Assembly: GCF_964355755.1 (NCBI RefSeq)
Contig: NC_092676.1
Location: forward strand, 22,400,871 to 22,464,870
Origin: Antedon mediterranea
Lineage: Eukaryota; Animalia; Echinodermata
Length of the DNA: 64,000 bases
Reading direction: 5' to 3'
Shown here: positions 27,401 to 63,000 of the stretch, in pieces
How the letters are laid out: every line of letters starts with the position of its first letter
Numbering within the stretch: the first letter of the stretch is position 1
Notes under the pieces: model-generated
The model's input: only the letters and a program-made list of their open reading frames with translations
What the model was told of the DNA's origin: nothing
The model's database searches: none
Made by a program: the position numbers and the translations under genes

Positions 27401-30400
27401 GTAGGTCTACTTAGTATAAAGTACGAACACGCAAAGCTACTGTCAAGTATTTATTAAATTATCATCTTTTGTTAATTGCAATCAAATCAGACAAAAATCA
27501 AACGGAAACCAAATAATCATAAGAGTCATACTGTATATAAATTATAGTGCTACTTACAAATGTGAAAGTGATGAAGCAAAAGAAGAGAAGGCATCTGGTT
27601 CAATGGTAGTTATAGCATTGTTCTGTAAATCCCTGTTGAAAGATAAATTAATAATAGACAACAGATATTGAGTAATGCATCACATTATTTAAAAAATACA
27701 TAATTTTCATTATCATACGTTAAAAAATTGTAAAAATAAAATTTTTTTTGCATAGTTAAATAAAAAACTGTTATGTTATGTTACATATAATATAGATATT
27801 AATATTAATACAGCTGTAATTTAAGAAAAATTTGTAATAAACAAAGCAATACACTTACAGTGCTTTCAATGCTGTCAAACCAGCAAATGCATCGGCTGGC
27901 AATGTACTTATTTGATTATAAGGCAACCACCTTAAATAGAAAAAGAATGCACAAAATAAGCACATGGAGTAAATACAATATAAATTATTTTTGTCTTTCT
28001 GTTTCTTCAAATAATTAAATTATCTACATCAGTAATACTACATTATAGTTATACTGCATGAATATAATTGTCAAGTTTTAAATATTATTATTGTTAATAA
28101 AATATTATTCAACAATTTAGATTAAGATTTCTTATTGTTAATATCTGACAAAAAGGATCTATGGTAGTTATAGCATTTCTCTCTAAATTCCTGTTAAAAG
28201 ATAAATTAATAAACAACATTTTATTGAGTAATGCATCACATTACTAAAAAAAATACGTAATTTTCATTATCAAGTAGAAAAACTATAAAAATAACATTTT
28301 ATTTGCATAGTTAAATTAAATAAAAATTAAATGTCATGACTTTGTTATTTTATTATTTCACTCTGTTGCCTAAAATGTTTACATTATTAGACTGCATGAG
28401 TATAGTTTCAACTCTTATACTTGAATCATTTGCATATGAAATATGAATTATAGTGTTAACTTACAGATGCCACCGTACATTAGAAGTAAGATTTCATTTA
28501 AAGTAAGATAAAATTATGTTATGTTACATATAATATAGATATTAATATTAATACAGCTTTAATTTAATTAAGAAATTAAGACAAATTTGTAATAAACAAA
28601 GCAATACACTTACAGTACTTCCAATGCTGTCAAACCAGCAAATGCATTGGCTGGCAATGTACTTATTTGATTATCATACAAGTACCTCAAATAGAAAAAG
28701 AATGCACAGAATAAGCACATGGAGTAATTACAATATCAATTATGTTTGTCTTTATGTTTCCTAATGTTTAAATTAGTAATACTACATTATAGTTACACTG
28801 CATAGTATAGTGTCAACTTTTATACTTGAATGATGTCAAAAATGCTATGTTAAAATAGAATATTGTTTTTAATTTGCAACTCAGACAAAATCACTATAAG
28901 AAATGATATTTCTAGACAAACTCACTCCAACAAATTTTAATTAATTGATTACAATTATGAAATATTATTATTAAAAAAATTATAGATTACAATACAGATT
29001 AAGATAAATTTGTAATATCTGACAAAAAGGATCTATGGTAGTTATAACATTGTTCTCTAAATTTTTGTTGAAAGATAAATATATATACCAAGTTTGATTT
29101 AAAAAATACATAATAAACAAAGCAATACACTTACAGTTCTTTCAATGCTGTCAAACCAGCAAATGCATTGGCTGACAATGTACTTATTTGATTACCAGAC
29201 AAGGACCTCAAATAGAAAAAGAATGCACAGAATAAGCACATAGAGTAATCACAATATCAATTATGTTGGTCTTTATATTTCCTAATGTTTAAATTAGTAA
29301 TACTACATTATAGTTACACTGCATAGTATAGTGTCAACTCTTATATTTGAATGATTTCAAATATACTAGTTTAAAAAGAATATAGTTTTTAATTTGTAAC
29401 TCAGACAAAATCACTACAAGAAATGTTATTTCTAGAAAAACTCACTCCAACAAATTTTAATTAATTGATTACAATTATTTCAAAGAATTACAGATTAAGA
29501 TTCTTAATAAATTTGTAATATCTGACAAAAAGGATCTATGGTAGTTATAGCATTGTTCTCTAAATTGAAGTTGAATGATAAATACAGTATATATATATAT
29601 ACAACATTTGATTTAAAAAATACATAATTTTCATTATCGTAAGTAGAATAAAAAAAAACCATTTTATTTAAAATTAAATTTCATGACTTCATTATTTTAT
29701 TATTTTACTCTGTTGCCTAAAATGTTTACATTATTAGACTGCATGAGTATAGTTTCAACTCTTATACTTGAATCATGTAAAAATAATATACCACAGTATG
29801 TTATGAAAGGATTTGTTTTCTCAGATAAATTACTGCAAACAATTTAAATTAATTGATAGAGAGAGAATATAATTTGCAACATTATTGTTAATAAAATATT
29901 ATTCCAAACAGTTGTTGATATCTGACAAAAAAATAAATAACTCGACATTCATGGTGGATGAAGTAACACTTGTTTTTAAAGTTCTTGTTATAAGATCATA
30001 TTATGAAATGATGTAATAAATAAGAATATCTTACTGTGTTAAACCATGGATTAAAGAATAGAAGGATATTCATCGACGTGAGATCAAGGGTTCCTTGACT
30101 CTCGCCGACAGAGCGCGGACCGCCCACAATGTTACAGTTTAATTAACCGCATGGTAACAACGAAACGGTCGCGTGCCTAATATATTGTTTACTGCACATG
30201 TGCAACGACATTTAACCTCTTTGGCCTCTGCCTCACGCCACTGCTGAGTATAATGTTTATTGAAAACAGTTATTAAATTACATTGTACGTTATTGTGAAG
30301 ACCCTAATGTAGGCTTACTTCATCAATATACGAAAGCCCATTAATGCCATTTTAAGTATATGTTTTTCGAACGTAATCCGTTCTAACGAATTAGTAATTC

Positions 30401-33400
30401 GTTTGAACGGATTAATAATCTGTTCAAACGAATTAGTAATCCGTTCAAACGAATTGCAACATATACAACAAGTGCCATTTAAAGAATATGTTGTAATTCG
30501 TTTCAACGGATTACTAATTTGTTTAAACAGATTAATAATCTGTTAAAACGAATTAGGAATCCGTTCAAACGGATTAGTAATTTGTTTAAACGGATTACTA
30601 ATTTGTTCAAACGAATTACTAATTCGTTCAAACGAATTACTAATTTGTTCAAACAGATTAGTAATCCGTTTAAACAAATTATTAATTTGTTTAAACAAAT
30701 TATTAATTCGTTTAAACGGATTACTAATTCGTTTGAACGAATTAGTAATTCGTTTGAACGGATTACTAATCCGTTTAAACAAATTAGTAATTCGTTTGAA
30801 CGAATTAGTAATCCGTTTAAACAAATTAGTAATTTGTTTGAACGGATTAGTAATCCGTTTGAACAAATTAGTAATCCGTTTAAACAAATTAGTAATTTGT
30901 TTGAACGGATTAGTAATCCGTTCAAACGAATTAAAACATATACCTTAAATGGCACTTGTTGTATATGTTGCAATTCGTTTGAACGGATTACTAATTCGTT
31001 TGAACAGATTATTAATCTGTTCAAACGAATTACTAATTCGTTAGAACGGATTACGTTCGAAAAACATATACTTAAAATGGCATTAATGGGCTTTCGTATC
31101 AATATACCAGATAAAATACTATATTGTTATTGGCTTAGAATTGTAGATGCTATAATTGTAATTAGTATAGGTTTCTGCCGCGATTGATCTACGCTAATGT
31201 TTTTATGACATTAAAGTAGCATTTTATGACCTGTAGTAGCCCTACATCTGAGACAATAACTATTTGTTGTCTCAGCCTACATGTAAAATTACAAAATCAG
31301 CAAGGATACTAGGCCTAGGCCTTCTAGGCTTACTAGTAAACCATATGATTTGCCGACATTGATACTGCCTAGGTAGGCCTAGGCTAATATTAAGTGTAGT
31401 AGATACAACGTGTAATCATGATCTATATACTCACCGTTGTCTTACTTCTTGTGTGAATAATAATAGGTACTTCGTTTGTTCGTGATTAAGTTTGCCATGC
31501 GTGTACTTTTCAAAACGACCGCTAGGTAACGTATCGCAACTATACATAGCCAGCCAATCCCGGATCAGGGATCGCTGTTTTCATTAAATCAGGCCCGGTG
31601 ATTGGATGTGATGTGGATGACATAACCACTTGCCAATCACCAGGCACTAAAATTTAAATATAATTACATCGATAATTAAGGAGAATTATGAAGAAACCAC
31701 TGCTTAGCCATATATTAAATACATGATTGTTCTATGTGTGGACACCGGACACGCTAACAACATACATGGTCAAATGCATAATTTAATATTCTATAGATTA
31801 ACGCAATTTTTAATGACAGAAGATGGCAGGCAAATAATGATAATTCAAATATAAAAATTGCATATTATTTTATTAATATTACCAACTACTTAAAATTACC
31901 AGTCGTAAGAAAGTGAACTTTTCGTAGTCTGATTGTTATGAAACTAAAACAGAATTGTTCAGCATTACATTTTTATTGTCAATTAATCATCGACGCAGAC
32001 ATGTCAATAGAACATTCAGACTGCGCATACGATTTGTACATGGTTACGTTTTGGTCTAAAAAAATGTAGCAGTTGATTCGCAGCGTTCTACAGAGGACCG
32101 CGGTTAGAGACACGGAGTTCAATGTTTGATTGGCAGCAGTGCTTTAGTATAGAAGCGCGTTCTAAAATCGTTTGATGTCGCCGTCGATGCATATCCTTCT
32201 AATTCTTTTATCCATGGTTAAACCTACAATGTAGATATTAATATTAATACAGCTGTAATTTAATTAAGAAATTAAGACAAATTTGTAATAAACAAAGCAA
32301 TACACTTACAATCCTTTCAATGCTGTCAAACCAGCAAATGCATTGGCTGACAATGTACTTACTTGATTAATAGACAATTCCCTCAAATAGAAAAAGAATG
32401 CACAGAATAAGCACATGGAGTAATTACAATATCAATTATGTTTGTCTTTATGTTTCCTAATGTTTAAATTAGTAATACTACATTATATTACATAGCCTAT
32501 GTAAATACGTGAACGTGATTGGTTGAAACTGCGTCACATGACTACCGCTGCGAGGATCGTAAATCGTATATATCCTCGAGAACGATGATATTGACTGAGT
32601 AATTTTCGCGTAATTATTGTGTCCCCTGTCATTAATCATATAAATTCTCGAGTTCGATGATATTGACTGTGTAATTTTCGTGTGCAACACTCGCGTTTGC
32701 CGATAAAATCTACTGGATCTTGAACTCGGGATGGAATTGTCACTCCATCACAAGACAACGCTTCAACCGCTGCGCCACGGAACTTGCTTGAAGAAATTAA
32801 TCTTTTAAACTATTTAAGCTATGCATTTATAGCGCCCTTATTTGTTATTAGTCCTCCCTAAATGTGATGAAACACCGTTTGTGATTGGTCAAAACTCACG
32901 GTAGTAACTAGTACGCGCTGAATATCCGGCGATTCGGCTCCTCGAAGAGAAGAAGACGAATTGTTTATTCGGCGTACCTGATTATAATATTATTATTAAT
33001 AGGCTTATTGATGAAAATTCTTCTGTTAATTTAAACGACCTAGGCCTAAGTGAATATTTTATTGCCAAGGAATCATTAATTAGTAATTATCTGTATATTA
33101 TTCTTCGCAAGGTAAGGTGTCTAGGCAGACTTGTTTACATACAATACAAATACTATAGGAGGCCTAGCCTAGTTTCACCCAACCCACCAGACTTGTTCTT
33201 GGCTATATAATATAACAGATATCGCCTTCTGTATCGGTTAAGTATAAGATTTGACATCCCCTCGGGAATGATATAAAGTTCTCGGGGAATATTTCCCTCA
33301 GCTGGCGCTTCGGGAAATATATATTCCCTCGAACTTAATATCATTCCCTCGGGGATGTCAAATCTTATATTTAACCTCTAAGCAGTCAATATCTGTATAA

Positions 33401-36400
33401 TAGTTACACTGCATAGTATAGTGTCAACTCTTATACTTGAATGATGTCAAATATACTATGTTAAAATAGAATATAGTTTTTAATTTGTAACTCAGACAAA
33501 ATCACTACAAGAAATGTTATTTCTAGACAAACTCACTCCAACAAATTTTAATTAATTGATTACAATTATAAAAGAGAAAATAGTTTTAAATATTATTACT
33601 AAAAAATAATTATATCAAACAATTACAGATTAAGATTCTTAATAAATTTGTAATATCTGACAAAAAGAATCTATGGTAGTTATAGCATTGTTCTCTAAAT
33701 TCCTGTTGAAAGATAAATATGTATTACATTTGATTTAAAAATAATTTTCATTATCATAAGTAAAAAAAACTATTTTATTTGTAGAGTTAAATAAAAATTA
33801 AATGTCATGACGTCATTATTTTATTATTTCACTCTGTTGCCTAAAATGTTTACATTATTAGACTACATGAGTATAGTTTCAACTCTTATACTTGAATCAT
33901 GTAAAAATAATATACTACAGTATGTTTTGAAAGGATTTGTTTTCTCAGACAAATTACTGCAAACAATTTAAATCAATTGATTGAAATATAATTTGCAACA
34001 TATTGTTTCTAAAATATTATTTCAAACAATTTTTGATATCTGAGAAAAAAAAATGATTCATGGGGGATGAGCTATGTTAAACCTACAATGTAGATATTAA
34101 TATTAAAACAGCTATAATTTAATTAAGAAAGTAAGACAAATTTGTAATAAACAAAGCAAATACACTTACAGTATTTTCAATGCTGTCAAACCAGCAAATG
34201 CATTGGCTGGCAATGTACTTATTTGATTATCATACAAGTACCTCAAATAGAAAAAGAATGCACAAAATAAGCACATGGAGTAATTACAACATCAATTATG
34301 TTTGTCTTTATGTTTCCTAATGTTTAAATTAGTAATACTACATTATAGTTACACTGCATAGTATAGTTCAACTCTTATACTTGAATGATGTCAAATATAC
34401 TAGTTTAAAAAGAATATAGTTTTTAATTTGTAACTCAGACAAAATCACTATAAGAAATGTTATTTCTAGACAAACTCACTCCAACAAATTTTAATTAATT
34501 GATTACAATTATGAAAGAGAAAATAGTTTTAAATATTATTATTAAAACAATATTATTTCAAAGAATTACAGATTAAGATTCTTTATAAATTTGTAATATC
34601 TGACAAAAAGGGTCTATGGTAGCATTGTTCTCTAAATTGCAGTGGAAATATAAATGTATATATCACATTTGATTTAAAAAAAAATTAAAATTGCACTTGT
34701 ATAGTTAAATCAAATAAAAATTAAATGTCATGACTTCATTATTTTATTATTTCACTCTGTTGCCTAAAATGTTTACATTATTAGACTGCATGAGTATAGT
34801 TTCAACTCTTATACTTGAATCATGTCAAAATAATATACCACAGTATGTTATGAAAGGATTTTTTCTCAGACAAATTACTGCAAACAAATTTAAATTAATT
34901 GATTGAAAGAGATTATAATTTGCAACATTTTTAATAAAATATTATTTCAAACAGTTGTTGAAATCTGACAACAAAATAAATAACTCATTCATTCATGTAA
35001 TTGTATTGATATATGATGAAATATGACCTGAAATATATGAGTACCAAATTTGGTTTAATTATGCTTGTCAAAATATGATTACAAACATGATTTTGTTAAA
35101 TAGACCACGTAATTTTTGATTGCGCACCACGAAAACATAATCACATCGATTCCTGGATGAATTAACACTTGTTTTAAAGTTCTTGTTATAAAATGATGTT
35201 ACTATGTTAAACCTACAATGTAGATATTAATACAGCTGTAATTTAATTAAGAAATTAAGACAAATTTGTAATAAATAAATAAACAAAGCAAATGGTATAC
35301 CAATGCTGTCAAACCAGCAAATGCATTGGCTGGCAATGTACTTATTTGATTACAATACAAGCCCGGCCCTCCTATAAAAATGCACAGAATGAATAAGCAT
35401 ATGGAGTAAATACCGTACAATATCAATTATTTTTGGTTTTTTTGTTTCCTCAAATAATGTTTAAATAATCTATATTAGTAATACTACATTATTAGTATAA
35501 ATATCAATATTTTAAATAAAAAAGCACTGCAAGAAATTTCAATAAATTGATTGCAATTATGAAAGAGATAATAGTTTTCAATATTAATACTAATAACATA
35601 TTATTTCAAACAATTTTGGCACAAAAAAAAGTACAGGGTACAACAATTTGCATTTTGTACAACACAGTGACTGAAAAAAACAACTTTAGCAGGATATAAA
35701 AACAGTGGCTATGCACAACATTTTGCCTTGTACAAAAACAGTTGTTGATTGGTACAAAAACACTTGTTAGGAACATAGCGGTGGCAGGGTACAACTTGCG
35801 TTATACAACACGGTGACTGGAAACAAACTTAAACGGTAGCAGGATATAGAAACGGTGGCAGGATACAAAAGCAGTAGGGTATAAAATCTGCATTGTACAA
35901 AAACGGTGGCAAGGGTACATAAACTTGGGGTTGTACAACAGTGGCTGAGAACAAAAACAGTGGCAGGATATAAAAACTTGGGTTGTACAACAGTGGCTGA
36001 GAACAAAAACAGTGGCAGGATATAAAAACTTGGGTTGTACAACAGTGGCTGAGAACAAAAACAGTGGCAGGATATAAAAACTTGGGTTGTACAACAGTGG
36101 CTGAGAACAAAAACAGTGGCAGGATATAAAAACTTGGGTTGTACAACAGTGGCTGAGAACAAAAACAGTGGCAGGATATAAAAACTTGGATTGTACAACA
36201 GTGGCTGAGAACGAAAACAGTGGCAGGATATAAAAACTTGGGTTGTACAACAGTGGCTGGGAACAAAAACAGTGGCAGGATATAAAAACTTGGGTTATAC
36301 AACAGTGGCTGAGAACAAAAACGGTGGCAAGGGTACACAAACTTGGGTTGTACAACACTGGCTGAGAACAAAAACAGTGGCAGGATATAAAAACTTGGGT

Positions 36401-37688
36401 TGTACAACAGTGGCTGAGAACAAAAACAGTGGCAGGATATAAAAACTCCTGTTAGTTCTACAAAATACAAGGATGGCAAAGGGATTGGTGGTTGCCTCAA
36501 GCAAGGCACAATTCATTCATTAAGCCTACTTACAATGTTGTTATTGGATTATGATTAGGATATAAAAACTTGGGTTGTACAACAGTGGCTGGGAACAAAA
36601 CCTTGGCAAGATATATTAGGAAAACAAAATGGTAGCGTACAAAAACTGAAACAGTAGCATGGTAACTAACCATAGCAGGGCTAAAAAAAATAGAGGTAAC
36701 CCCCTGTTAGTTCTTCAGAAGCGAGGATGAGAAAGGGTTTGGCACAATTCATTCATTAAGCCTACTTACAATGTTGTTATTGGATTATGATCATTGTACT
36801 GAGCAAGTTGTGTCTGTATGGTAGTATTCCATGTATCACAATGAGTATAATTTTGCAAATGGTTACAATTACAAAGTCTTGGGCATACACTTTTTTCTGT
36901 TAAAAATATAAAAATATTTTAAAATGAGTAAATAATAAAAAGTAACTTATTTTATTTAGTTATCACAGTATAAAACATACTAAATCAGCAGTCAGAAAAC
37001 GAAGTGGAGAAAAATATATTAAAAACAAATACAAATTAAAATGTATAAAAGTTGCATATATAATACTTGCTACTACATTTACTTGTCTATCAATATAGAA
37101 TATGTGTGATTTTAATATAGATCAAAAGGGAAATTACTAAAAAAATGGTAATGGCTGCATACAACAACAAAAATAAGCAAAAAGCTAAATCAAAACGGTT
37201 TTGTAAAATAGCCAGAAAGAAATTACAGAGCTTACAGGTAACATTACGCCTTCCTTAGTAGTGTAGGGGTACATAGAGATAAGTAAGAATACAAGGTAGA
37301 CAAGAGCTGCTGATTATACTAAACTAAAACATATAGCCATTTCCTTCGTTGAATAAAGCAATTTGCACTAGGAAAAAGTGACATTTAAGTACAAGCACGT
37401 GCCAGGATTTGTGCTTCTTTTTTCCCCACAAATAGGGGGAAAAGGTGTAAGTGTAACAACTGAAAAACATCAACATAATTTGCCTGCTGGCTAGCAGAGA
37501 ACTTCCACTGCTGTTTCTTGTTTGAAAAAGACACTTTTCAGGGGGAAAGGGTAATAAAATTTTAATTAATACAATTTTTTTAATGTTTGAAAATAAGATG
37601 GTAAATATATCTTACCATTCACATCGGAACTATAACAGCTAGAAAACAACAATGGTACCAACAGCACGAGGGTGTTAAAGATAGACAT
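24419..37688 (-). CDS. LRR-containing rhodopsin-class GPCR, copy A (LGR type C/GRL101-like hinge and 7TM, no LDLa); 580 aa if all cassettes are included
   Basis: Exons: 37688-37616 signal peptide (MSIFNTLVLLVPLLFSSCYS); 36896-36770 LRRNT (CPRLCNCNHLQNYTHC); five 72-nt LRR cassettes at 34241-34170, 32381-32310, 29206-29135, 28685-28614 and 27930-27859; LRR exons 27632-27558 and 26513-26442; and 25454-24419 hinge (YSDFSRLCC..C..DAFASCEDLL) plus 7TM (NLAASD, SIDR, CLALPL, FTDFCCWGP, NSSVNPYLY). The total of 1743 nt is in frame. Confidence 0.9.
25737..25912. repeat. 24-bp minisatellite (about 7 copies in copy A, about 1.5 copies at 46390 in copy B)
   Basis: GTACAACTTATTATTATCTCATAC repeated. This explains the periodic spurious ORFs. 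Confidence 0.9.
27176..27368. mobile_element. Harbinger-type palindromic MITE; duplicate at 47720-47912
   Basis: TIR AGCCTGTTTTCCTGTC, TTA TSD. It is present in both paralogs. Confidence 0.8.
30045..32216. mobile_element. Non-autonomous P-like TIR element inserted in an LRR-unit intron
   Basis: TIR CATGGATTAAAGAATAGAAGGATAT..CATCGAC / GTCGATGCATATCCTTCTAATTCTTTTATCCATG, 7-bp TSD GTTAAAC. Sister units show the empty site TGTTAAACCTACAATG. Confidence 0.8.
30329..31098. mobile_element. Nested IS3EU-like foldback element with 21-bp subrepeats
   Basis: TIR TACGAAAGCCCATTAATGCCATTTTAAG, 6-bp TSD TCAATA, internal AACGAATTAGTAATCCGTTCA-type repeats. Confidence 0.8.
32486..33402. mobile_element. Unclassified ~0.9-kb element, copy 2, inserted in an LRR-unit intron
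   Basis: Homologous to 9119-10033. It interrupts the unit motif TACTACATTATAGTTACACTGC. Confidence 0.75.
35290..35372 (-). pseudogene. Broken LRR cassette exon
   Basis: The core LYCNQISTLPANAFAGLTAL is intact, but the GTAAG donor region is lost and the acceptor side is replaced by GGAGGGCCGGGC, which is out of phase. Confidence 0.8.
35630..36600. repeat. 52-bp minisatellite (about 10 homogeneous copies at 35920-36447, decayed flanks)
   Basis: AAAAACTTGGGTTGTACAACAGTGGCTGAGAACAAAAACAGTGGCAGGATAT repeated. Confidence 0.92.
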
Positions 37689-40600
37689 CTTTGTACACAA
37701 ATTTAACGATATCGGAGTGTTACTAGTTAACTTTACTTCTGCGAGTCAGCTCCGATTTGTGAGAATTAAACGTTTTGTTGTTTAAAGAATACGTTTAGCA
37801 CTTCTAGTGAGTTTTAATAATTTAGACAAATAATTTCACCAGATGTATTCAGGTTTTGCTGATAGGAGTCCTAATGGTTCATCTTAATATTCAATTGTTA
37901 TTTGAAAATATTAATATTAATGTCAAAGAGGTTACACCACCCTGGTAATATGCAGTAATAACTTTTTACCCAAAATAATAATATAGTTATTAAAGTTTTC
38001 ACATAATAATAAATTGTATTACTTATATTAAGTCCATGTTGGGAGACGATTAATTAAACTAATCTAACATTTTACATGTTTCTATTAATTACTTGTGTCA
38101 ATTGTTTGTTTTTCTAAAGAATAAATAATAATTAATTTTATTAAGACCAATAAATTTCTCCAAAAGTCCTTTCTTCCACTTGCCACATTAAAACTGACTT
38201 TTGGTAGCTCATCCAGTAAACATAAGGTCTTATTAGGTCTGTATTTCTAATATGGGTAAAAATATATATATATATATTGGCATATATGGCGTTTCATATG
38301 TATAGTAGATCTTTTTTCCAGACCAAAATCGAAATGCTGACTGGTGGACGATAACATAAAAAAGATGAAAACTGCAGGCCTTGAGGAAAGTATAATTAAA
38401 CATAGCAACTACTACTGTACAAGCAGCAATGAATATCATAAGGGGTGCTGAGATCAGCATTCAGTTCTGTCGATAAGTAATTCAGTTGTTTTAACTTTGA
38501 AAATCAGCTAAATTGATGAAAACTACACATTTTGTTTACATTACTTGTAGCATTTCCTGTGAATTTTAATAATTTAGATAAATAATTTCATCAGATGTAT
38601 CTGTGTTTTTCTGAAAGGAGTCTTAATGGTTCGTTTTAATATTAAATTATATTAAAAATATTAAAGGTACCAATTTGATAGAGATTACATCACAATGAGT
38701 ACAGTATAACGTTTGTCCCAAACATAAATGTTATGAAAATAGACATTTTCAATAAAATTTATTATGTGCTAATAATAATTAGCGACACAATTAAATGTTT
38801 TCGTAGTTATAAAAAGTTTCCATCTACTCTTTTAATTGCTTAGGCCTACATTATTTTTATCGTATATTTTGTATTTATAGTAGTTTTTCTGATAAATAAA
38901 GAATAATTGATTTTAATAATAGAAAAATGAATATTTTTTAGATAAAAGTGTCCTTCTGCTCGCCACTGACTGTTGGTTACTGCTCATCAACTATTCGTCC
39001 ACAACTTAGAAGATTGCAGCAAACAGTATTCTAAATTTGTTCTTTCTTTATATTTTGATATTTTAGCACAAAGTTTCACTTACCAGAAACAATTAGGTCT
39101 ATGGCTACTGAAAAACAGTCAATAATAATTTGTTCTCTCATTTTTACAATATTTTATATATTTGTTGTGTCATTTTATTCGGCTTTTTTATTTGTATGCT
39201 ACAGTATATTTAAGATGTTTTCATTTTGATCATTCTTTTCGGTATGTTTTATATTCTTAGGACCCCTTTTATTTTTTCACCAGACAACAAAGTCTTAAAG
39301 ATAAACATGTTCTTACCTAACTTTGTACCAATATCTGACAGTTCAATTGTTTAAAGATTACCTACCATAGCGTTTCTAGTAATTGTGTTAATAATTTAGA
39401 TAAATCACTTCACAAGATGCATCCAATGAAGAGTTTCACTGATGGAGTAGTAATCATATATTTAATTAGAATGAAAATTTATCTGGTTTGGTAAAAGAGA
39501 TGGAGATAGATACTTGCACTTTGATTCACAAGTTAACATATATCTCTCTTAACATTTAACTGTTTACATTCAAAGTAATATTAAACGTATAAAGTTTGTG
39601 TTAGCTCATGTTTCCCTCTATTATTGATTTCATCGTTCTTATTTTTTTCTTAGGTTTTTTTTTTTTTGATAAAGAAAACTAGATTCGAATGAAGAATAAT
39701 ATGATTTTAAATAGGATCCCTCCCGGTCACCTCATTCAAACTGGCTGCGGGCGTTGGCAGGATTTTTAAAAAGGAGAAGATTTGAGAGGAGTGGAGCACA
39801 TAATCGGCTGAGTACAGGCTATAGTGGCAGTATTTACCAATCGCACATGTGTGTTATTTCTCTTAAAAATATGAAGAATTTCACATTTAAGGAAATTTTT
39901 TCAATTACAAGAGTAAATGTTTCTCTTAGCTGAAGTGTAATGGTGAACGGTCACAGGACCGACAAGTTCTGTAGCCTTTAAACATCATATTTTGGAGGAT
40001 CATAATTACCTCGGTAAACGCAGAAGAAAACTTGTTTAACTTAATTATTCGGTAACTTTATTCCTCTAACTCATTGAATATTTATGAGGCGTGACGCAAG
40101 TGTGGGCATCATATGACCATATATCAGTAGACGCGGAAGAAAGCAATGAATTATTTAATATCTTTATTCCTCGCTTAATGAATATGTATGAGGCGTGATG
40201 CAAGGGTGGACAGTCATATGATCGTACATCAGTATTTTCCTACAGTAGGTAGGTTTTAGATAGAAAACATAATTATGCAGTTTTTTCATTTAACTTAAAG
40301 ATATATTATCCCCTGAATTTTAATGTCACATAATAGTTATTCCCTTTGACCAAAAACTTGATAGAAAAAAAAAAACTTACTGAATAAAATTTTATTTTAT
40401 TTAAAGCAAAACATTGTCTGTCAGACAATTGGTTTTTGGCTGAATTTAACTGTTTATTTTTTCTTTTTATAAAGTGCAAACATAATTTGTTTTTGTTTCT
40501 TTTTCTACGGAAATGATTACCTTTATTAAAACTACAAAATGGCCTATTTGATTTATTAATCTTCATTTTTCATGTTTTTCAGGGACAGTACATCTTTAAT

Positions 40601-41113
40601 AATATCGAATGTTTATTACCTGATGTAAATATTGACCCAATTCCTTCATAGCTTAAAACAAGCATTATTAAAAAAATATCCATATAAAAATTAACATACT
40701 ACACATTTACAACTTTTGAGAACAACAGACCTCAGAACTTGGAAAAATAAATATCGGAAAGTTTATGAAAGCATGTCAAAACTATAGAGGGCATTATAAC
40801 ATTTTGTTTTGTTAAGATAGTGGCAACTGCACTATAATAGTAAACATGGGTATGGCAGGTGTGCCAAAGGCTGATAATGCGGTGCCAACTGAATTCAAAG
40901 TATTAAACAACAGATGAATTTATTTAGTTAGTATCTAGAGACGTTTGCCGGAATGGCTGCCAATGGGATTTCACTCATGCGAAGTGTATAAGAGATAGGA
41001 GTTTCATATCTTGCGCCACTTCGCACGGCGCTATAGTATCTTTGGTGTGTGCCGCTCAACCAGCAACTCGCTTTAAAATAAATTGCTGCCACATCTTAAT
41101 TTTATTTTTACAG

Positions 41114-43302: not shown

Positions 43303-45073
43303 AGATAATTCCTCGCGCTCATTATGCAATAATAGGGTATTTTTAAATTGGATGAATAATAGGTGAAATAAAATTGTACGGGAGGGTGTATGTGTAACGT
43401 GGTGTTTAGTAGATGGTTATAGATTGTAATAGGGACTTTTTGGTCAACAGCTTCAACCTTAAGTTGTAACAACATGCATTATGTATGCTCCGCCCATTTA
43501 TGCAGATTTGGAAAGACCTTGAATTCAAATAAATTTCAATTGGTAAGCGATGGATCTGATTGGCTGCATTACTTGCATTGCTTGTATGTTTTTTGCGCTA
43601 CATTGTGTGAAACCAAGCTTAAAGGTTTTAACTTTTATGCTAGCAAAGTTGTTGCATATCATTAGTGATATAAGTGATACTAATCGCGTAATATTTGATG
43701 AAAAGTGTTTCGCGAAAAGATGAAAACTAGAGAGCTTAACAAAACACAATTTAAGATTGAGGAAATTTTCATTTAGATTTTTTATTTGCAGTGCCCGCAA
43801 TTAAAAGGTGTAGTTTAATTATAACCATGTCAATTTACTTGTATATTAAAGCTAAAACATTATTCACTTAATAAAAATGCAAAATCCATTTCACATTCTG
43901 ACGACATGTGTGTATATGTGTGAACACAAGTTAAGTTGAGGATCAAAAAGTCTGTAATAAATATTAAAGTAAATCTATTAAATATAAATACTTGTTCTGT
44001 ATATAAAATGTTTTATGAATTCATTTTAATATATTATATATATAAAAGGTATATAAATAAGTAAGTTAATTGTACTAAATTTCTTTAAATATTACATCTA
44101 GTCATGTTTCGTGGTAACCATTTTCTTTTGCTTCTTCTCAGACTAGATTCTGGATGGTGATTAAGATTCGGCTTAATATTCATAAAAAGTTTGTCACACA
44201 TGGCGTGTCATACTATACTTGAGCTAAAATTAATTCATCTTCATAAAAACTGCCGCTAGTGGCGTTATGTAAAAAGAAACAATTCCTGAAGACTTATGGC
44301 AAAATTAAATACAAAACCAAAAATAAATTTATCTTTGAAATTTAATTTAAATTACAAGTAAATATGTTATGCTCATTTCGTTCAAACCATGACCTCCATC
44401 AATTATGTACATCAATTACGATTTTTGAAGCATCATCAAATAAATTTTGTGTTGCCCAATCACGGTGTATCATACAATTCTAGTCATCGAGTCCTTGCGC
44501 ATTACACCCAAGAATACATTAAGTTGAATGATATTAGAAATTAAAAATGAATTTAGAATGTATTTAAGTATTGTAGATTGTAGAATACAAAATATATGAG
44601 TAACATTTCATATCTAAAACTATAGTAAATATTATTTACGTGTATACTAAATTGTTACTCGATGTCTGTTACTATCAAACAGTTTCCCAACGGAATATAC
44701 TTATATTTATTATATATTGTGGAATATAATAAATGACAAGTTAAAAGTTTTTTCAGTTCTTTTTTTTCAGATTTTCTGTTGTATAAATAAGTTTTTTGGT
44801 TTCTTTGTTTTGTTTTATATATATATACTGTAGGCTTATATTAAAGCACTCTTCCCTGATTAAAGCAAGTTATATAACAAAGTAATAATTACAAACAATG
44901 AAACTTTGATTTAAACATTAAATACATTTTAAAAAGTACACATAGAATTTACGTCACACATGGGATCAACGAATCACACATGGGATTAACGAATCACACA
45001 TGGGATTAACGAATCACACATGGGATCAACGAATCACACATGGGATCAACGAATCACACATGGGATTAACAAA

Positions 45074-51000: not shown

Positions 51001-54000
51001 TAAGAAAGAGTATGGGGTGTTGTTGAGGGGTCGATGTTGGTGAGTATAGACAGATACTGGCGTCGGGTGTTATGTACTGAGAAGGCTGTAAACTAATTTT
51101 GAAACCCGCCCTGGGGCGGGTATAATTGCTAGTATAATATAAATTATTTTTGTCTTTATGTTTCTTCAACTGTTTAAATTATCTACATCAGTAATACTAC
51201 ATCATAGTTATACTGCATGAATATATTGTCAAGTTTTAAATATTATTATTGTTAATAAAATATTCTTCAAACAATTTAGATTAAGAATTCTTATTAATTT
51301 TTAATATTTGACAAAAAGGATCTATGGTAGTTATAGCATTCTTCTCTAAATTCCTGTTGAAAAATAATAATAGGCAACATTTTATTGAGTAATGCATCAC
51401 ATTATCTAAAAAAATACGTAATTTTCATTATCATAAGTAGAAAAACAGTAAAAATTAAATTTTATTTGCATAGTTCAATTATATAAAAATTTAATTTCAT
51501 GACTTCATTATTTTATTATTTAATTCTGTTGCCTCAAATGTTTACATTATTAGACTGCATGAGTATAGTTTCAACTCTTATCTTGTCAAAATAATATACC
51601 ACAGTATATTATGAAAACCTTTTTTTTTCTCAGACAAATTACTGCAAACAATTTAAATTAATTGATTGAGAGAGATTATAATTTGCAACATTATTGTTAA
51701 TAACATATTATTTCAAAAAGTTATATCTGAGAAAAAATAAATAACTCATTCATTTAAAGTAAGATAAAATTATGTTATGTTACATATAATATAGATATTA
51801 ATATTAATACAGCTGTAATTTAATTAAGACATTAAGACAAATTTGTAATAAACAAAGCAATACACTTACAGTGTTCCCAATGCTGTCAAACCAGCAAATG
51901 CATTGGCTGACAATGTACTTATTTGATTAACAGACAACCACCTCAAATAGAAAAAGAATGTACAGAATAAGCACATGGAATAATTACAATATCAATTATT
52001 TTTGTCTTTATATTTCCTAATGTTTAAATTAGTAATACTACATTATAGTTACACTGCATAGTATAGTGTCAACTCTTATACTTGAATGATGTCAAATATA
52101 CTATGTTAAAATAGAATATTGTTTTTAATTTGTAACTCAGACAAAATCACTACAAGAAATGATATTTCTAGACAAACTCACTCCAACAAATTTTAATTAA
52201 TTGATTACAATTATGAAAGAGAAAATAGTTTTAAATATTATTATTAACAAATTATTTTTTCAAACATATACAGATTAAGATTTTTTATAAATTTGTAATA
52301 TCTGACAAAAAGGATCTATGGTAGTTATAACATTGTTCTCTAAATTGCCGCAGTTGAAATATAAATATATCACATTTGATTTTCATTATTGTAAGTAGAA
52401 AAAAAAATTGTACTTGTATAGTTAAATCAAATAAAAATTAAATTTCATGACTTCATTATTATTTTAATATTTCACTCTGTTGCCTAAAATGTTTACATTA
52501 TTAGACTGCATGAGTATAGTTTCAACTCTTATACTTGAATCATGTCAAAATAATATACTACAGTATGTTATGAAAGGACTTTTTTCGCAGATAAATTACT
52601 GCAAACAATTTAAATTAATTGATTGAGAGAGATTGTAATGTATTGTTAATAAAATATTATTTCAAACAGTTGTTGATATCTGACAACAAAATAAATAATT
52701 AATTCATGGTGGATGAATTAACACTTGTGTTTTAAGTTATTGTATAAGATCATATTATGAAATGATGTAATAAATAAGAATATCTTAGTTACTATGTTAA
52801 ACCTACAATGTAGATATTAATATATATACAGCTGTAATTTAATTAAGAAATTAAAGACAAGTTTGTAATAAATAGAGTAAGTAAACAAAGCAATACACTT
52901 ACAGGGATTCCAATGCTGTCAAACCAGCAAATGCATTGGCTGGCAATGTACTTATTTGATTATTATGCAACCACCTCAAATAGAAAAAGAATGCACAGAA
53001 TAAGCACATGGAGTAATCACAATATCAATTATTTTGTCTTTCTGTTTCTTCAAATAATTAAATTATCTACATCAGTAATACTACATTATAGTTATACTGC
53101 ATGAATATAATTGTCAAGTTTTAAATATTATTATTGTTAATAAAATATTACTCAAACAATTTAGATTAAGATTTCTTATTAATTGTTAATATCTGACAAA
53201 AAGGATCTATGGTAGTTAGGCCTATAGCATTTCTCTCTAAATTCCTGTTGAAAGATAAATTAATAAACAACATTTTATTGAGTAATGCATCACATTACTA
53301 AAAAATACATAATTTTCATTATCAGAAGTAGAAAAACTGTAAAAATAACATTTTATTTGCATAGTTAAACTAAATAAAAATTAAATTTCATGACCTCATT
53401 ATTTTAATATTTCACTCTGTTGCCTAAAATGTTTACATTATTAGACTGCATGAGTATAGTTTCAACTCTTATACTTGAATCATGTCAAAATAATATACTA
53501 TAGTATGTTATGAAAGGACTTTTTTCGCAGATAAATTACTGCAAACAATTTAAATTAATTGATTGAGAGAAATTGTAATGTATTGTTAATAAAATATTAT
53601 TTCAAACTGTTGTTGATATCTGACAACAAAATAAATAATTAATTCATGGTGGATGAATTAACACTTGTTTTTAAAGTTCTTGTTATAAGATCATATTATG
53701 AAATGATGTAATAAATAAGAATATCTTACTGTGTTTAACATACAATGTAGATATTAATATATATATACAGCTGTAATTTAATTAAGAAATTAAGACAAAT
53801 TTGTAATAAACAAAGCAATACAATTACAGGGATTCCAATGCTGTCAAACCAGCAAATGCATTGGCTGACAATGTACTTATTTGATTATTATGCAAGTGCC
53901 TCAAATAGAAAAAGAATGCACAGAATAAGCACATGGAGTAATCACAATATCAATTATGTTTGTCTTTATGTTTCCTAATGTTTAAATTAGTAATACTACA

Positions 54001-57000
54001 TTATAGTTACACTGCATAGTATAGTGTCAACTCTTATACTTGAATGATGTCAAATATACTATGTTAAAATAGAATATAGTTTTTAATTTGCAACTCAGAC
54101 AAAATCACTACAAGAAATGATATTTCTAGACAAACTCAGTCCAACAAATTTTAATTAATTGATTACAATTATGAAAGAGAAAATAGTTTTAAATACTATT
54201 ATTAAAAAATTATTATAATCAAACAATTACAGATTAAGATTCTTAATAAATTTGTAATATCTGACAAAAAGGATCTATGATAGTTATAGCATTGTTCTCT
54301 AAATTCCTGTTGAAAGATAAATATTTATTACATTTTATTTGTAAAAAAAACTATTTTATTTGTATAGTTAAATAAAAATTAAATTTCATGACTTCGTTAT
54401 TATTTTATTATTTCACTCTGTTGCCTAAAATGTTTACATTATTATACTACATGATTATAAGTTTCAACTCTTATACTTGAATCATGTCAAAATAATATAC
54501 TACAGTATATTATGAAAACCTTTTTTTTTCTCAGACAAATTACTGCAAACAATTTAAATTAATTGATTGAGAGAGATTAAAATTTGCAACATTATTGTTA
54601 ATAAAATATTATTTCAAAAAGTTATATCTGAGAAAAAATAAATAACTCATTCATTTAAAGTAAGATAAAATTATATGTTATGTTACATATAATATAGATA
54701 TTAATATTAATACAGCTGTAATTTAATTAAGAAATTAAGACAAATTTGTAATAAACAAAGCAATACACTTACAGGGTTTCCAATGCTGTCAAACCAGCAA
54801 ATGCATTGGCTGACAATGTACTTATTTGATTATCATACAAGTACCTCAAATAGAAAAAGAATGTACAGAATAAGCACATGTAGTAAATACAATAAAAATT
54901 ATTTTTGTCTTTATGTTTCTTCAACTGTTTAAATTATCTACATCAGTAATACTACATCATAGTTATACTGCATGAATATATTGTCAAGTTTTAAATATTA
55001 TTATTGTTAATAAAATATTCTTCAAACAATTTAGATTAAGAATTCTTATTAATTTTTAATATCTGACAAAAAGGATCTATGGTAGTTATAGCATTCTTCT
55101 CTAAATTCCTGTTGAAAAATAATAATAGGTAACATTTTATTGAGTAATGCATCACATTATCTAAAAAAATACGTAATTTTCATTATCATAAGTAGAAAAA
55201 CAGCAAAAATTAAATTTTATTTGCATAGTTCAATTAAATAAAAATTAAATGTCATGACTTCATTATTTTATTATTTCACTCTGTTGCCTAAAATGTTTAC
55301 ATTATTAGACTGCATGAGTATAGTTTCAACTCTTATACTTGAATCATGTCAAACTAATATACCACAGTATGTTATGAAAGGATTGTTTTCTCAGACAAAT
55401 TACTGCAAACAATTTAAATTAATTGATTGAGAAAGATTATAATTTGCAACATTGTTAATAAAATATTATTTCAAACAATTGCTGAAATTTGACAACAAAT
55501 AAATAACTCATTTAAAGTGAGATAAAATTATGTTATGTTACTATGTTAAACAAACAATATAGATATTGACCGTCTGAGAAAAGAACATCGCGGTATGGTG
55601 GACAAGATCGATGACCTCGAACAGTACAGTAGGCGCAACTGCCTACTAATTCACGGATAGTCTGGGTTCCAGACGGAGTTTTGTCTTAATATTAGTAAAA
55701 AGATAAATATTTTGGCACATATGGCGTTTCATACGTTTACTACTTGATTTTGGATACTCCGTCTGGGGAAACACGCACAAGTCACGTGGTTTGACACCAA
55801 GAATTCTTGGTGCATACGATTATCCGGTTGACTAGTTTCAGCTGCATGCGATTGGCTACTCACTCGTACACTATTTTAATATTCATATTTCAAAGACTCA
55901 ACATCTAAGATGATGCGCATGCGCTATTTTACGTTTAGACAATGTGTACTTGGGTACATCATGGAGATACCTCCATGGGTACATTGATGAAAGTTTCTGA
56001 AGGCTAGAAATGATTTTATCCCTGTCTGGTAATTATTTGATGGGATTTTTCCCAAGAACATGAAAACTCGTCTTGATATGATAGGCTACCTTCTCCGCAA
56101 ATCAAACATTGGTTGAATGGATCATTTATTACGCGGAGATATTTTAATTTAATTCCCACCCAGACCCTGTCCTGTTCTGTATGGTGGTGTAGCCCTGTTG
56201 TGTGCCGGTGATGGTATGTAGGCCTACCTTATTGGCGTTTTATTCGGCAGGTCATACGTGCGAGTTGAGTAGGACCTACGAAGGAGGCCTAGGCCAAGGA
56301 CTAAACAATTAATAAACAAAACAACTTGGCAACACGATTTTATATTTCAACAGCCTCGATCGTACATTCAGCACTGTTCGTATAGTACTCGATCTTTTTT
56401 ATTTTGAAACAAAATGATCATTGGTTGATTCGAAATCCATATTTACATACCGCCCGCCCCATATAGCCAAATACGGTATCGTAACCTACTTCATTCTTAT
56501 CGGATGCTTGCGGTCTGCAAATCGATTTCTATACGTGTTTCACAAGTCTGTATTTTCAGACAAAAATCGCGGTCGAAATAAAAACAAATAAATAAAAAAA
56601 AAGACAATACAGACTTGGAGTGTATTTTCAGACAAAAATCGCGGTCGAAATAAAAACAAATAAATAAAAAAAAAGACAATACAGACTTGGAGCAAGTCTA
56701 ATTCACGGAGTACCCGAAACGGCAAATGAAAACACAGATACCTTAACTCTAGATATTATAACATCACGCATCTGCGAAGATATGGAACTAATCGAGATTG
56801 ACCAAACTCACCGACTTGGACGGAAGAGAGTACTCCATAACAACAAAACATGCAGCAGTTCTAAACCGAGGCCTCCGATTATCGTAAAATTTTCCACATA
56901 CCGCGCACGAGCAGAAGTATTTCGCAACAAGAAATTGCTTAAAAATTCTTCTTACTCTATAACCGAGAACTTAACACCTTCTCGCATGACCCTCCTGCGC

Positions 57001-57289
57001 GAAGCGGGCGCACATGCCGCTGTGGAAGCCGCGTGGTCGCTCGATGGACGGATCAACTGCCTTCCGACCTCCGTAATTTCTAGATGTAATTAAAACATCA
57101 ACTATCAATTAATATTGCTTGTATGTTCCGCTTTGCGGATTCAGCTACAGTAAACCTTGATTGTTCCTGTCTGATCCCAAAATTATTTATATTACATTAC
57201 TCCTGCTGTTGTCGTTTATCGTCATCATCATCTTTTATTATTATTATTATTAATGTTATTATTATTATTATTATTAGTAGGCTATTATA

Positions 57290-57327
<38 letters not shown>

Positions 57328-62596: not shown

Positions 62597-62649
<53 letters not shown>

Positions 62650-63000
62650 TTTCTACTACTTTAATTAATATTTAATTATTGTCTATTGTAATTGATACAA
62701 TAATTAGTGTATTTTGTACTGGTGAAACCAGGCTTAAAGCTCTATATTGAGCTTATTTGGTCTTTTCCAGGCTTTGCATTTTTTTATTTAATACTTATTA
62801 TGTAAAAATATTAAGTTTGATGCATTGTGAAATAAAAACGAACGAACGAACGAATATTAATATTAATACAGCTGTAATTTAATTAAGAAATTAAGACAAG
62901 TTTGTAATAAACAAAGTAATACACTTACAGTCCTTTCAATGCTGTCAAACCAGCAAATGCATTGGCTGGCAATGTACTTATTTGATTACCATCCAAGTAC
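45074..63000 (-). CDS. LRR-containing GPCR, copy B; 5' exons lie beyond the window
   Basis: 72-nt cassettes at 63000-62929, 54844-54773, 53899-53828, 52974-52903, 51941-51870, 49642-49571 and 48770-48699; LRR exons 48176-48102 and 47023-46952; hinge plus 7TM exon 46109-45074, open and nearly identical to copy A. Confidence 0.88.
49686..51132 (+). mobile_element. Non-autonomous Helitron in an LRR-unit intron
   Basis: 5' TCTATATTATAAG, 3' hairpin ACCCGCCCTGGGGCGGGT followed by CTAG. Inserted between A and T of GAGTAAA^TA with no TSD. Confidence 0.85.
55658..56700. mobile_element. Non-autonomous AcademH-like DNA transposon inserted in LINE ORF1
   Basis: TAG..CTA termini (TAGTCTGGGTTCCAGAC / AGACTTGGAGCAAGTCTA) and a 9-bp TSD ATTCACGGA (55649-55657, 56701-56709). 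Confidence 0.7.
57327..58640 (-). mobile_element. Non-autonomous Helitron inserted in the (TTA)n tract between LINE ORF1 and ORF2
   Basis: Minus strand 5' TCTATATATAAA; 3' hairpin GATGGTACGCGAGCGAAGCGAGCGTACCATC followed by CTAG^T. Confidence 0.88.
59160..62462 (+). CDS. LINE ORF2: PHD-like zinc finger, APE endonuclease and reverse transcriptase (1100 aa)
   Basis: N-terminal CxxC..CxxC..H..C..CxxC; endonuclease motifs SETWL, GGGVALY, YRPP, GDFN, IDNIF and TDHFP; RT motifs YRPISILP, QYGFR, FLDLSKAFD, GVPQGSILGP, FADD and FLGV. Confidence 0.97.
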   Translation: MYTRSMSCVSCDKCIRVATYVNCDICNKPSHATCASFPYSNSLKFYCCKCLEETLPFNHIIDDDEFKHEIKQLNNDHTINYSNLQSLLFNPFDLNDDNDYDYINEITNHNDKCEYYLSDSFNNKIINTNSNLSILHMNSRSLIKNFKSITNYLLTLNHKFQIIGFSETWLDNTNNVPSPLTHIEGYTMIKSNRAGKRGGGVALYISDELNFKIRSDINLPTNQNYDSLFIEIESITKNSIVGIIYRPPNSSFQPFINNISNCIDSITKEKKQLFVCGDFNLDLIKHSTHNYTNEFLNTMYSASLYPLIDKPTRITTKTSTLIDNIFTNVLDQKITPGILFNDITDHFPVFQILNNSHSNQIKNLKCNKKHYSRKINQENIASLGINLMNTNWDDVYQNNSANESYNIFLDRFSSLYDTHLPKTRTKINKRKLCKPWITKGIIKSINTRNKLYKKYIKTPNMINKTNYITYRNKLTRLIRTSCKQHYTNKFNDYKNNIKKTWNIINNILCKNTTKTLPSYFTDNGTKITDPSQISNKFNRYFTDIGPKLSSKISATHGNFTDYLRNPTQNSIFFQPTSGKEILEIISNLKNSKSAGLNDIEPTIIKEIGPFITRPLTHIFNLSLTNGVFPSSLKIAKVIPIHKKNDSHSFENYRPISILPCFSKILERLIYNRLYNFLSSHKSFHDNQYGFRPKHSTDLAILDIQSKISNALSKNHHTIGLFLDLSKAFDTINHTILLTKLSHYGIRGTPLSLLSNYLQNRQQITSFGSYSSEVLPITCGVPQGSILGPLLFLIYVNDIINATKSFEYVLFADDTNIFSSHPDYNTLTRIFNKEIKHISHWLKLNRLSLNINKTEYIHFSPNRTCNDNQNTIHIENTPIKRVTYSQFLGVTIDNNLNWKTHITNIANKISKNIGVLKKLKYILPSNILFSLYNTLILPYLSYCNIAWGITDTKNKTLCPWASTHISKLDKLFKLQKRAIRICTNSHYIAHTKSLFFKLNTLNIFDINKLQIATFMHRYSNNQLPNIFKHFFIKNNEFHNYNTRNTNNYATINLTHNTIRNSIKYHGPLVWNNLSQSLLNTNNLNTFKSKYKQFLLSQYRSY

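What the first reader, a model, noticed from the sequence alone, without database searches (positions are those of the whole stretch)
27859..63000. GPCRs with arrays of hypervariable one-exon-one-LRR cassettes: candidate variable receptor system
Seen: 12 intact 72-nt phase 2-2 exons. Copy A in transcript order reads YLYD..KIL, ELSI..KGL, SLSG..KEL, YLYD..EVL, WLPY..KAL. Copy B reads YLDG..KGL, YLYD..ETL, HLHN..ESL, WLHN..ESL, WLSV..GTL, LLSD..GWL, YLNN..KIL. The framework NQISTL(P/S)ANAFAGLTAL is nucleotide-identical apart from the P/S site and two single changes, with essentially no synonymous variation. All 12 cassettes differ from one another. Variation sits in five codons, and in three of them only positions 1-2 change (NNT, NNT, RRA). 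Established: these five residues are the solvent-exposed x positions of the LxxLxLxxN beta-strand, the ligand-binding concave face. The same positions diversify in lamprey VLRs and plant LRR immune receptors, and one-LRR exon arrays are known in brown algal ROCO genes. Inference: this is a diversifying recognition module (immunity, allorecognition or chemosensing) wired to a constant LGR-type 7TM. I do not know this architecture as described for GPCRs.
Basis: partly seen in the sequence, partly recalled or inferred. Interest (0 to 1): 0.93.

Follow-up and report, generated by a model that had tools for sequence, protein, structure and literature searches.

The report
Feather-star GPCRs with shuffled variable cassettes
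Two neighbouring feather-star receptor genes carry rows of near-identical one-exon building blocks that differ mainly at five predicted binding-surface residues, which likely lets this receptor family evolve new specificities quickly, most probably for recognising foreign molecules.

Summary
Observation confirmed. Two tandem minus-strand genes hold 5 and 7 intact 72-nt LRR exons; 24 of 28 minimal nucleotide changes fall in five codons at the x positions of LxxLxLxxN. Those codons differ far more than flanking introns (pN 0.50 vs 0.10), silent framework sites barely differ (0.012), and upstream flank, downstream flank and variable blocks have uncorrelated histories: homogenisation by recombination plus selection for diversity. 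Copy A reads as a complete 580-aa receptor (signal peptide, LRRNT, cassettes, two cap LRRs, 7TM). The 7TM lies in a crinoid-only, LDLa-less offshoot of GRL101-like receptors with at least 26 Antedon paralogs on 8 chromosomes; one paralog repeats the pattern on a different framework. It works like brown-algal ROCO LRR exon arrays, on a GPCR; ten-search-limited literature checks found no such GPCR. No sign of somatic assembly. Function (non-self sensing most likely) is inferred. New variant of a known kind; interest 0.65.

The parts
37616..37688 (-). Copy A exon 1, predicted signal peptide (24 aa, phase 1)
   Evidence: ATG, hydrophobic core, GTAAGA donor, in phase with LRRNT exon; predicted, no transcript
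36770..36896 (-). Copy A LRRNT-like cap exon (CPxxCxC...C), 127 nt, phase 1-2
   Evidence: tblastn match to N-cap of P0002 weak (E 1.4); no Pfam hit
35301..35364 (-). Broken 13th cassette: core intact, both splice ends altered
34170..34241 (-). Cassette A1 (YLYD..KI)
32310..32381 (-). Cassette A2 (ELSI..KG)
29135..29206 (-). Cassette A3 (SLSG..KE)
28614..28685 (-). Cassette A4 (YLYD..EV)
27859..27930 (-). Cassette A5 (WLPY..KA), the only one with an AAG acceptor
27558..27632 (-). Copy A penultimate LRR exon C1 (75 nt)
26442..26513 (-). Copy A last LRR exon C2 (72 nt)
24419..25454 (-). Copy A hinge + 7TM terminal exon (CEDLL, DRA, CCWGP, NPYLY)
   Evidence: PF00001 E 1e-30; motifs; RXFP1 best solved relative E 4e-44
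62929..63000 (-). Cassette B1 (YLDG..KG), separated from B2 by 8.2 kb of inserted repeats
54773..54844 (-). Cassette B2 (YLYD..ET)
53828..53899 (-). Cassette B3 (HLHN..ES), GTAATT donor
52903..52974 (-). Cassette B4 (WLHN..ES)
51870..51941 (-). Cassette B5 (WLSV..GT)
49571..49642 (-). Cassette B6 (LLSD..GW)
48699..48770 (-). Cassette B7 (YLNN..KI)
48102..48176 (-). Copy B penultimate LRR exon C1 (75 nt)
46952..47023 (-). Copy B last LRR exon C2 (72 nt)
45074..46109 (-). Copy B hinge + 7TM terminal exon, 4 nt different from copy A
28145..55108 (-). Nine intronic relics of the 5' half of exon C1 (first bases 55108, 54306, 52347, 51353, 49033, 33702, 29567, 29064, 28190), part of the tandem repeat unit; 6 of 9 keep an AG acceptor; all run into a stop after 20-27 codons

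Best explanation
These are two recently duplicated members of a feather-star family of LRR-containing GPCRs whose ectodomain is predicted to be built from a tandem row of one-exon-one-LRR cassettes, likely kept uniform and reshuffled by germline recombination while selection likely diversifies the five binding-face residues to recognise changing foreign macromolecules. Shown: the exon row, its phase compatibility, the open 580-aa frame of copy A, the site pattern, the mosaic flanks, the family expansion. Inferred: (1) unequal crossing-over and gene conversion use the identical 51-nt core and conserved flanks as homology, changing cassette number (5 vs 7 here, 11-12 in paralog models) and pairing; because each beta-strand is made by the 3' end of one exon and the 5' end of the next, every shuffle makes new strands; (2) selection keeps many alleles at the five x codons against this homogenisation; (3) all cassettes are spliced, through weak GAG acceptors, into one horseshoe whose concave face binds a protein or glycan ligand; (4) binding is relayed by the conserved hinge (CEDLL) to a constant 7TM and G protein; (5) the ligand is most likely microbial or parasite-derived.
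For: x codons pN 0.50 vs framework pS 0.012 and flank introns mean 0.10. The six pairs with the closest flanks (2.7-4.3% apart) still differ at 5-10 of 15 x nucleotides, Fisher p 6e-4 to 8e-10. Minimal networks: 25 replacement steps at 12.3 x sites vs 4 silent steps at 17 sites in the whole exon, ratio 8.6, p 1e-6. Internal control: nine dead C1 relics in the same repeat units differ by 0.096 at the equivalent codons, cassettes by 0.43. Exon C1 differs at 7 of 55 replacement sites between A and B vs 2 of 803 in the 7TM and 27 of 1862 in the neighbouring introns. Mosaicism: P/S site and codon-22 site 33 nt apart show all four combinations 3:3:3:3; upstream vs downstream flank Mantel r -0.02, all six tests non-significant. 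Replication: paralog model P0158 has 11 distinct repeats on another framework, identity 0.94 framework, 0.25 at x; of 65 GPCR hits with 3 or more scored repeats the six highest (0.56-0.94) are crinoid and the other 59 are at most 0.53. Three of the five x positions are strand in 9-10 of 10 repeats of the P0151 model, the other two flank the strand. A GRL101-like LRR-GPCR cluster lies in a schistosome-resistance locus of Biomphalaria sudanica (PMC12297450, passages).
Against: 11 of 12 acceptors are GAG, a rare class (recalled). The database proteins of both genes are 306-aa 7TM-only models without cassettes. Counted within the five x codons alone, replacement excess is not significant (p 0.098 at 26 of 28; the network count is 25 of 28, weaker still). 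Framework pN/pS is not below 1 (0.021/0.012) and the framework is not significantly more conserved than the adjacent 38 intron bases (p 0.11). Recombination makes step counts and dN/dS-type ratios unreliable. The same protein pattern occurs in 14 of 113 non-GPCR LRR arrays, mostly unnamed metagenome proteins (framework identity 0.85 or more), so it does not by itself mean immunity. Expanded GRL101-like genes of apple snails and a starfish gene are enriched in sensory organs (PMC6573481, PMC6267866, passages). Paralog arrays are automatic gene models of unknown transcript support.
Confidence: 0.5

Rival explanations
1. Same germline cassette mechanism, but the ligands are conspecific or environmental cues (protein pheromones, gamete or settlement signals), so the family is chemosensory or reproductive rather than immune.
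For: All sequence evidence for the best explanation fits equally. Ampullariid GRL101 expansions (29-132 genes) are highly expressed in tentacles and palps (PMC6573481, passages); a starfish GRL101-like gene is enriched in sensory tentacles (PMC6267866, passages).
Against: Repeat-level hypervariability with mosaic shuffling is the pattern published for candidate immune receptors (PMC3341825, PMC11378527, passages); A and B diverge at the binding face faster than their introns, suggesting an arms race.
Confidence: 0.22
2. The weak GAG acceptors make cassette inclusion optional, so one gene yields many isoforms by in-frame skipping (up to 32 and 128 subsets), or cassettes act as donors for somatic conversion, giving a repertoire within one animal.
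For: All cassettes are 72 nt, phase 2-2, so any subset stays in frame; weak acceptors are confined to the variable exons while LRRNT, cap and 7TM exons have CAG/TAG; skipping would re-pair the half strands; ROCO LRR exons are alternatively spliced (PMC11378527, passages).
Against: No transcript or somatic data. The germline gene is complete and in order, unlike VLR loci; no cassettes on the opposite strand or outside the two genes among 13 found in 64 kb; no other AG within 46-66 nt upstream, which suits constitutive use of the GAG.
Confidence: 0.15
3. The cassettes are no longer spliced; the arrays are recently expanded, decaying repeats whose variable codons were inherited from older functional repeats.
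For: GAG acceptors, 7TM-only database models, one broken cassette and many transposon insertions in the introns.
Against: 12 of 13 cassettes are intact with no stop or indel while flanks carry many indels; copy A is one open 580-aa frame and copy B 561 aa without stops; truly dead relics in the same units do not diversify this way; C1 and C2, with normal acceptors, also change at x codons.
Confidence: 0.13

Closest known systems
Brown-algal LRR-ROCO genes (Ectocarpus, Saccharina; PMC3341825, PMC11378527, passages read)
   Same: One 72-nt phase-2 exon per 24-residue LRR; exon shuffling, variable repeat number between recent paralogs, diversified residues on the concave face; function inferred, not proven.
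   Different: Here the array is extracellular on a class A GPCR in an animal, not on a cytosolic Roc-COR GTPase; five sites (not four); framework far more uniform, including silent sites; no opposite-strand spare exons seen; alternative splicing untested.
GRL101 / type C LGRs (Lymnaea GRL101, RXFP1) and expanded GRL101-like clusters of snails (PMC8286064, PMC12297450, PMC6573481, passages read)
   Same: 7TM and hinge clearly of this group (RXFP1 best solved relative, E 4e-44; 37-44% identity to canonical GRL101s); LRR ectodomain; tandem lineage-specific expansion.
   Different: Not in the orthologous GRL101 clade; no LDLa or lectin module in copy A; repeats 95% alike in framework vs 30-53% in non-crinoid GRL101-like hits. 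The passages read report no cassette-level hypervariability.
Lamprey/hagfish variable lymphocyte receptors (PMC13428168, passages read)
   Same: 24-residue LRR cassettes with variable concave-face residues between fixed caps.
   Different: VLR germline genes are incomplete and assembled somatically from flanking donors with cytidine deaminases; here the germline gene is complete, cassettes are intron-separated exons, and the output is a 7TM.
Sea-urchin germline-expanded receptors (TLR, NLR, SRCR) and SpTransformer (PMC13428168, passages read)
   Same: Echinoderm germline multigene expansion with mosaic, recombination-shaped diversity.
   Different: Different protein families; diversity here is built repeat by repeat inside a GPCR gene.

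Membership tests
Class A LRR-containing GPCR (LGR) | Rhodopsin-family 7TM | tested here: met
   PF00001 E 1e-30, 107 bits over cutoff 30.5; DRA, CCWGP, NPYLY
Class A LRR-containing GPCR (LGR) | LRR ectodomain and hinge in frame with the 7TM | tested here: met
   Genomic frame open, 580 aa for copy A; paralog models join the same repeats to the 7TM; transcript not seen
GRL101 proper (type C2 LGR) | Multiple N-terminal LDLa repeats | tested here: not met
   No LDLa motif in six frames and no tblastn hit of six LDLa-bearing N-termini near the genes; signal exon abuts LRRNT in phase. Copy B's 5' end lies outside the window
GRL101 proper (type C2 LGR) | Orthology with Lymnaea GRL101 on a 7TM tree | tested here: not met
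   Window genes sit in a crinoid-only clade (33 rows, SH-aLRT 100) apart from the 13-row clade with Lymnaea (100); quick tree, midpoint root, no bootstrap
ROCO-type LRR exon-shuffling system (works-like test) | One 72-nt same-phase exon per LRR | tested here: met
ROCO-type LRR exon-shuffling system (works-like test) | Shuffling/mosaicism and changing repeat number | tested here: met
   four-gamete and Mantel results; 5 vs 7 cassettes; P0148 vs P0151 same 7TM, 10 vs 12 scored repeats
ROCO-type LRR exon-shuffling system (works-like test) | Positive selection at concave-face sites by codon site models | tested here: inconclusive
   Counting tests support it against pooled silent sites and introns (p 1e-6) but not within the five codons alone (p 0.098); no codon site model run
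ROCO family (membership) | Roc-COR GTPase domain | tested here: not met
   C-terminal module is a 7TM
ROCO-type LRR exon-shuffling system (works-like test) | Alternative splicing of LRR exons | not testable with these tools
   No RNA data were obtained
Agnathan VLR | Incomplete germline gene with flanking donor cassettes | tested here: not met
   Copy A is a complete ordered gene; all 13 cassettes lie inside the two genes on the coding strand
Agnathan VLR | Somatic assembly and clonal expression | not testable with these tools
   Needs sperm vs coelomocyte long reads

The most novel reading that the evidence does not exclude
Feather stars have a GPCR-based variable receptor system: weak GAG acceptors let each gene include different subsets of hypervariable LRR cassettes (or cassettes convert one another in somatic cells), so one animal expresses a combinatorial repertoire of binding surfaces wired to constant G-protein signalling, a Dscam/VLR-like system in an invertebrate deuterostome.
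Probability: 0.15. Interest if true: 0.92.

Novelty: new variant of a known kind. Interest (0 to 1): 0.65.

Why it matters
GPCR specificity normally evolves by gene duplication and point change in the pocket. Here a GPCR appears to have taken on the repeat-shuffling design of candidate immune LRR receptors, independently of algae and lampreys and at least twice on different frameworks within one genome. It gives a concrete, testable candidate for non-self recognition in crinoids, for which our searches found no described receptor family of this kind, and a natural library of modular LRR binders coupled to one signalling unit. Automatic annotation cuts these genes down to the 7TM exon, so similar systems may be hidden in other genomes.

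Tried and rejected
No whole genome is held for the window, so cassettes could not be counted genome-wide. Sequencing-run search: no RNA holder listed; no evidence either way. Contigs of four runs (X5, X12, X1, X6) laid on copy B all include intronic pieces, so they behave as DNA; none of the 15 joints shown (136 not shown) matches an exon junction; summed depths over cassettes were not used as copy numbers. Cassette variation between individuals remains untested. The homolog search with the LRR region of P0151 was swamped by non-GPCR LRR arrays; none of the best 120 of 800 carries PF00001. One search failed through a regex slip, redone. The single-sequence model of P0151 is usable only for the ectodomain (pLDDT about 75-90 over 11-310 with a dip at 205-217, under 50 from 343); fold searches return generic LRR horseshoes (LGR4/5, LINGO1, LRIG1, Tolls; Z 23-29, no clear winner) and say nothing on function. 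The careful tree did not finish; the quick one was used. A position-specific mutation hotspot was considered and disfavoured: dead relics in the same units do not show it and third positions of three x codons never change. The search for literature on GAG acceptors gave one moss paper, listing only. Earlier scan notes: nothing for this genome or sequence.
Full report
Observation. A scan of both strands for the cassette core found 13 copies, all on the minus strand. Twelve are intact 72-nt phase 2-2 exons at 63000, 54844, 53899, 52974, 51941, 49642, 48770 (copy B) and 34241, 32381, 29206, 28685, 27930 (copy A; first bases); the one near 35351 has lost both splice ends. All 12 differ. Codons 1, 3, 4, 22 and 23 carry 6, 6, 6, 3 and 8 residue types; the other 19 positions carry one or two. 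24 of 28 minimal nucleotide changes lie in those 15 bases (p 4e-13).

Anatomy. Copy A reads as signal-peptide exon (37688-37616), LRRNT-like exon (36896-36770), five cassettes, a 75-nt and a 72-nt cap LRR exon, and one hinge+7TM exon: 580 residues, no internal stop. Copy B has seven cassettes and the same three 3' exons (561 residues open); its 5' exons are not in the window, and an intact LINE-type RT ORF and other repeats separate B1 from B2. The exon border cuts the LRR strand, so residues 22-23 of one exon and 1-4 of the next make one LxxLxLxxN strand. The tandem unit is about 0.5-1 kb and includes a dead 5' half of the 75-nt exon (nine relics). GAG acceptors are rare in animals (recalled, not from a call). 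Splicing of the cassettes is therefore predicted, not shown.

Identity. The 7TM matches PF00001; its best solved relative is RXFP1 (E 4e-44), then the glycoprotein-hormone receptors. Nearest database proteins are Antedon mediterranea 'GRL101-like' models (up to 82%), and the window's own proteins lie on a contig of the same length as several of them, so the window is most likely from that feather star (inference). On a quick tree of 69 7TM rows (2 window, 34 A. mediterranea, 8 Anneissia, 25 other animals, chosen by hand from 159 hits), the two genes fall in a 28-row Antedon-only clade (SH-aLRT 99), inside a 33-row crinoid clade (100) in which my motif count found no LDLa, apart from the clade with Lymnaea GRL101. 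The 26 named members lie on 8 different large contigs. No LDLa was found in the window near the genes. Veenstra reports a single GRL101 orthologue per ambulacrarian (PMC8286064, passages), so this is a derived, expanded offshoot and not GRL101 itself.

Evolution of the cassettes. Mean pairwise pN at the five x codons is 0.50; framework pS is 0.012 and pN 0.021; flanking intron substitution distance averages 0.10, maximum 0.21, over 66 pairs. The six pairs with the closest flanks (2.7-4.3%) differ at 5-10 of 15 x bases (Fisher p 6e-4 to 8e-10), and x distance does not track flank distance (rho 0.03). Minimal networks give 25 replacement steps at x sites against 4 silent steps in the whole exon, a rate ratio of 8.6 (p 1e-6); within the x codons alone the excess is not significant (p about 0.1 or weaker). 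The nine dead relics differ by 0.096 at the equivalent codons against 0.43 for live cassettes. The 'constant' exon C1 also differs between A and B at 7 of 55 replacement sites, against 2 of 803 in the 7TM and 27 of 1862 in adjacent introns (p 1e-7, 3e-5), and C2 changes only at two x codons. Two sites 33 nt apart show all four combinations equally (3:3:3:3), and upstream flank, downstream flank, 5' and 3' variable blocks are mutually uncorrelated in all six Mantel tests. This is what frequent exchange inside the identical core would give. Because silent sites are as uniform as replacement sites, the framework is homogenised at DNA level; protein-level purifying selection is not shown. Recombination makes the rate ratios approximate.

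Replication and specificity. Paralog model P0158 has 11 distinct repeats on a different framework with identity 0.94 (framework) and 0.25 (x), next to 0.95 and 0.18 for the window; of 65 GPCR hits with at least three scored repeats, the top six are crinoid (0.56-0.94) and the other 59 are at or below 0.53. P0148 and P0151 share a 7TM but differ in N-terminal repeats. These are automatic models; their exon structure and transcript support could not be examined. The pattern is not exclusive: 14 of 113 non-GPCR LRR arrays reach framework identity 0.85 or more. In an AlphaFold model of P0151 (ectodomain pLDDT mostly 75-90), x codons 23, 1 and 3 are strand in 10, 10 and 9 of 10 repeats and codons 22 and 4 flank the strand. 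That this strand forms the concave ligand-binding face is established for LRR proteins (PMC3341825, passage).

Mechanism. Best reading (0.5): a germline-diversifying receptor in which recombination shuffles and homogenises cassettes, selection maintains variety on the binding face, and a constant hinge and 7TM relay the signal, most likely for foreign macromolecules. Rivals: the same machine used for chemical or reproductive cues (0.22); an individual-level repertoire by cassette skipping or somatic conversion (0.15); a decaying unspliced array (0.13). Published GRL101-like expansions point both ways: a cluster of 12 in a schistosome-resistance locus (PMC12297450, passages) and sensory-organ expression in apple snails and a starfish (PMC6573481, PMC6267866, passages).

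Comparison and novelty. It works like brown-algal ROCO genes (72-nt LRR exons, shuffling, selected concave sites, alternative splicing; PMC3341825, PMC11378527, passages) but is not a ROCO, not a VLR (complete germline gene; PMC13428168, passages) and not GRL101 proper. Six full-text searches (mostly listings and abstract starts, seven papers read as passages, no supplements) showed no report of such cassette arrays in a GPCR or in crinoids; the library lacks most subscription papers. Verdict: real feature, new variant of a known kind, interest 0.65; 0.92 if the repertoire proves combinatorial within one animal.

Noticed in passing
window 59160-62462 (+): Intact 1100-aa endonuclease/reverse-transcriptase ORF (RVT_1 E 3e-39), a probably young LINE inserted antisense in the B1-B2 intron; a 141-aa ORF1-like fragment lies at 56668-57093.
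   Followed up: partly
window 28145-55108 (-), nine places: Relics of exon C1's 5' half, six with an intact AG acceptor, in frame with the cassettes and ending in a stop after 20-27 codons; if used they would give short secreted LRR-only products or decayed transcripts.
   Followed up: partly
window 879-11827 (-): Exons of an SF3A1/PRP21-like splicing-factor gene (PF12230 at 7949-8161).
   Followed up: partly
window 15091-15315 (+) onward: V-ATPase subunit C gene (PF03223), convergent with receptor copy A.
   Followed up: partly
window 19989-21514: Long inverted repeat (about 640 bp, 85%) built of short tandem arrays, possibly a foldback element.
   Followed up: no
window 41896-42949 and 57356-58642; 9112-10033 and 32479-33402: Two interspersed repeats present twice in the window (one inverted, one direct); the second interrupts the A1-A2 intron.
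   Followed up: no
window 30373-31054, 35897-36447, 16829-17346: Minisatellites of 21, 52 and 73 bp; the 52-bp array sits beside a 51-bp duplicate of the LRRNT exon's 3' end and donor (36505-36555).
   Followed up: no
P0208, P0273: Capsaspora tyrosine kinases have LRR arrays with a very similar framework and variable x positions (framework identity 0.72 and 0.65, x about 0.2).
   Followed up: partly
P0002 (Anneissia japonica): Related LDLa-less receptor model with signal peptide, LRRNT and 10 scored, less uniform LRRs (framework 0.56), suggesting the architecture predates the Antedon-Anneissia split.
   Followed up: partly
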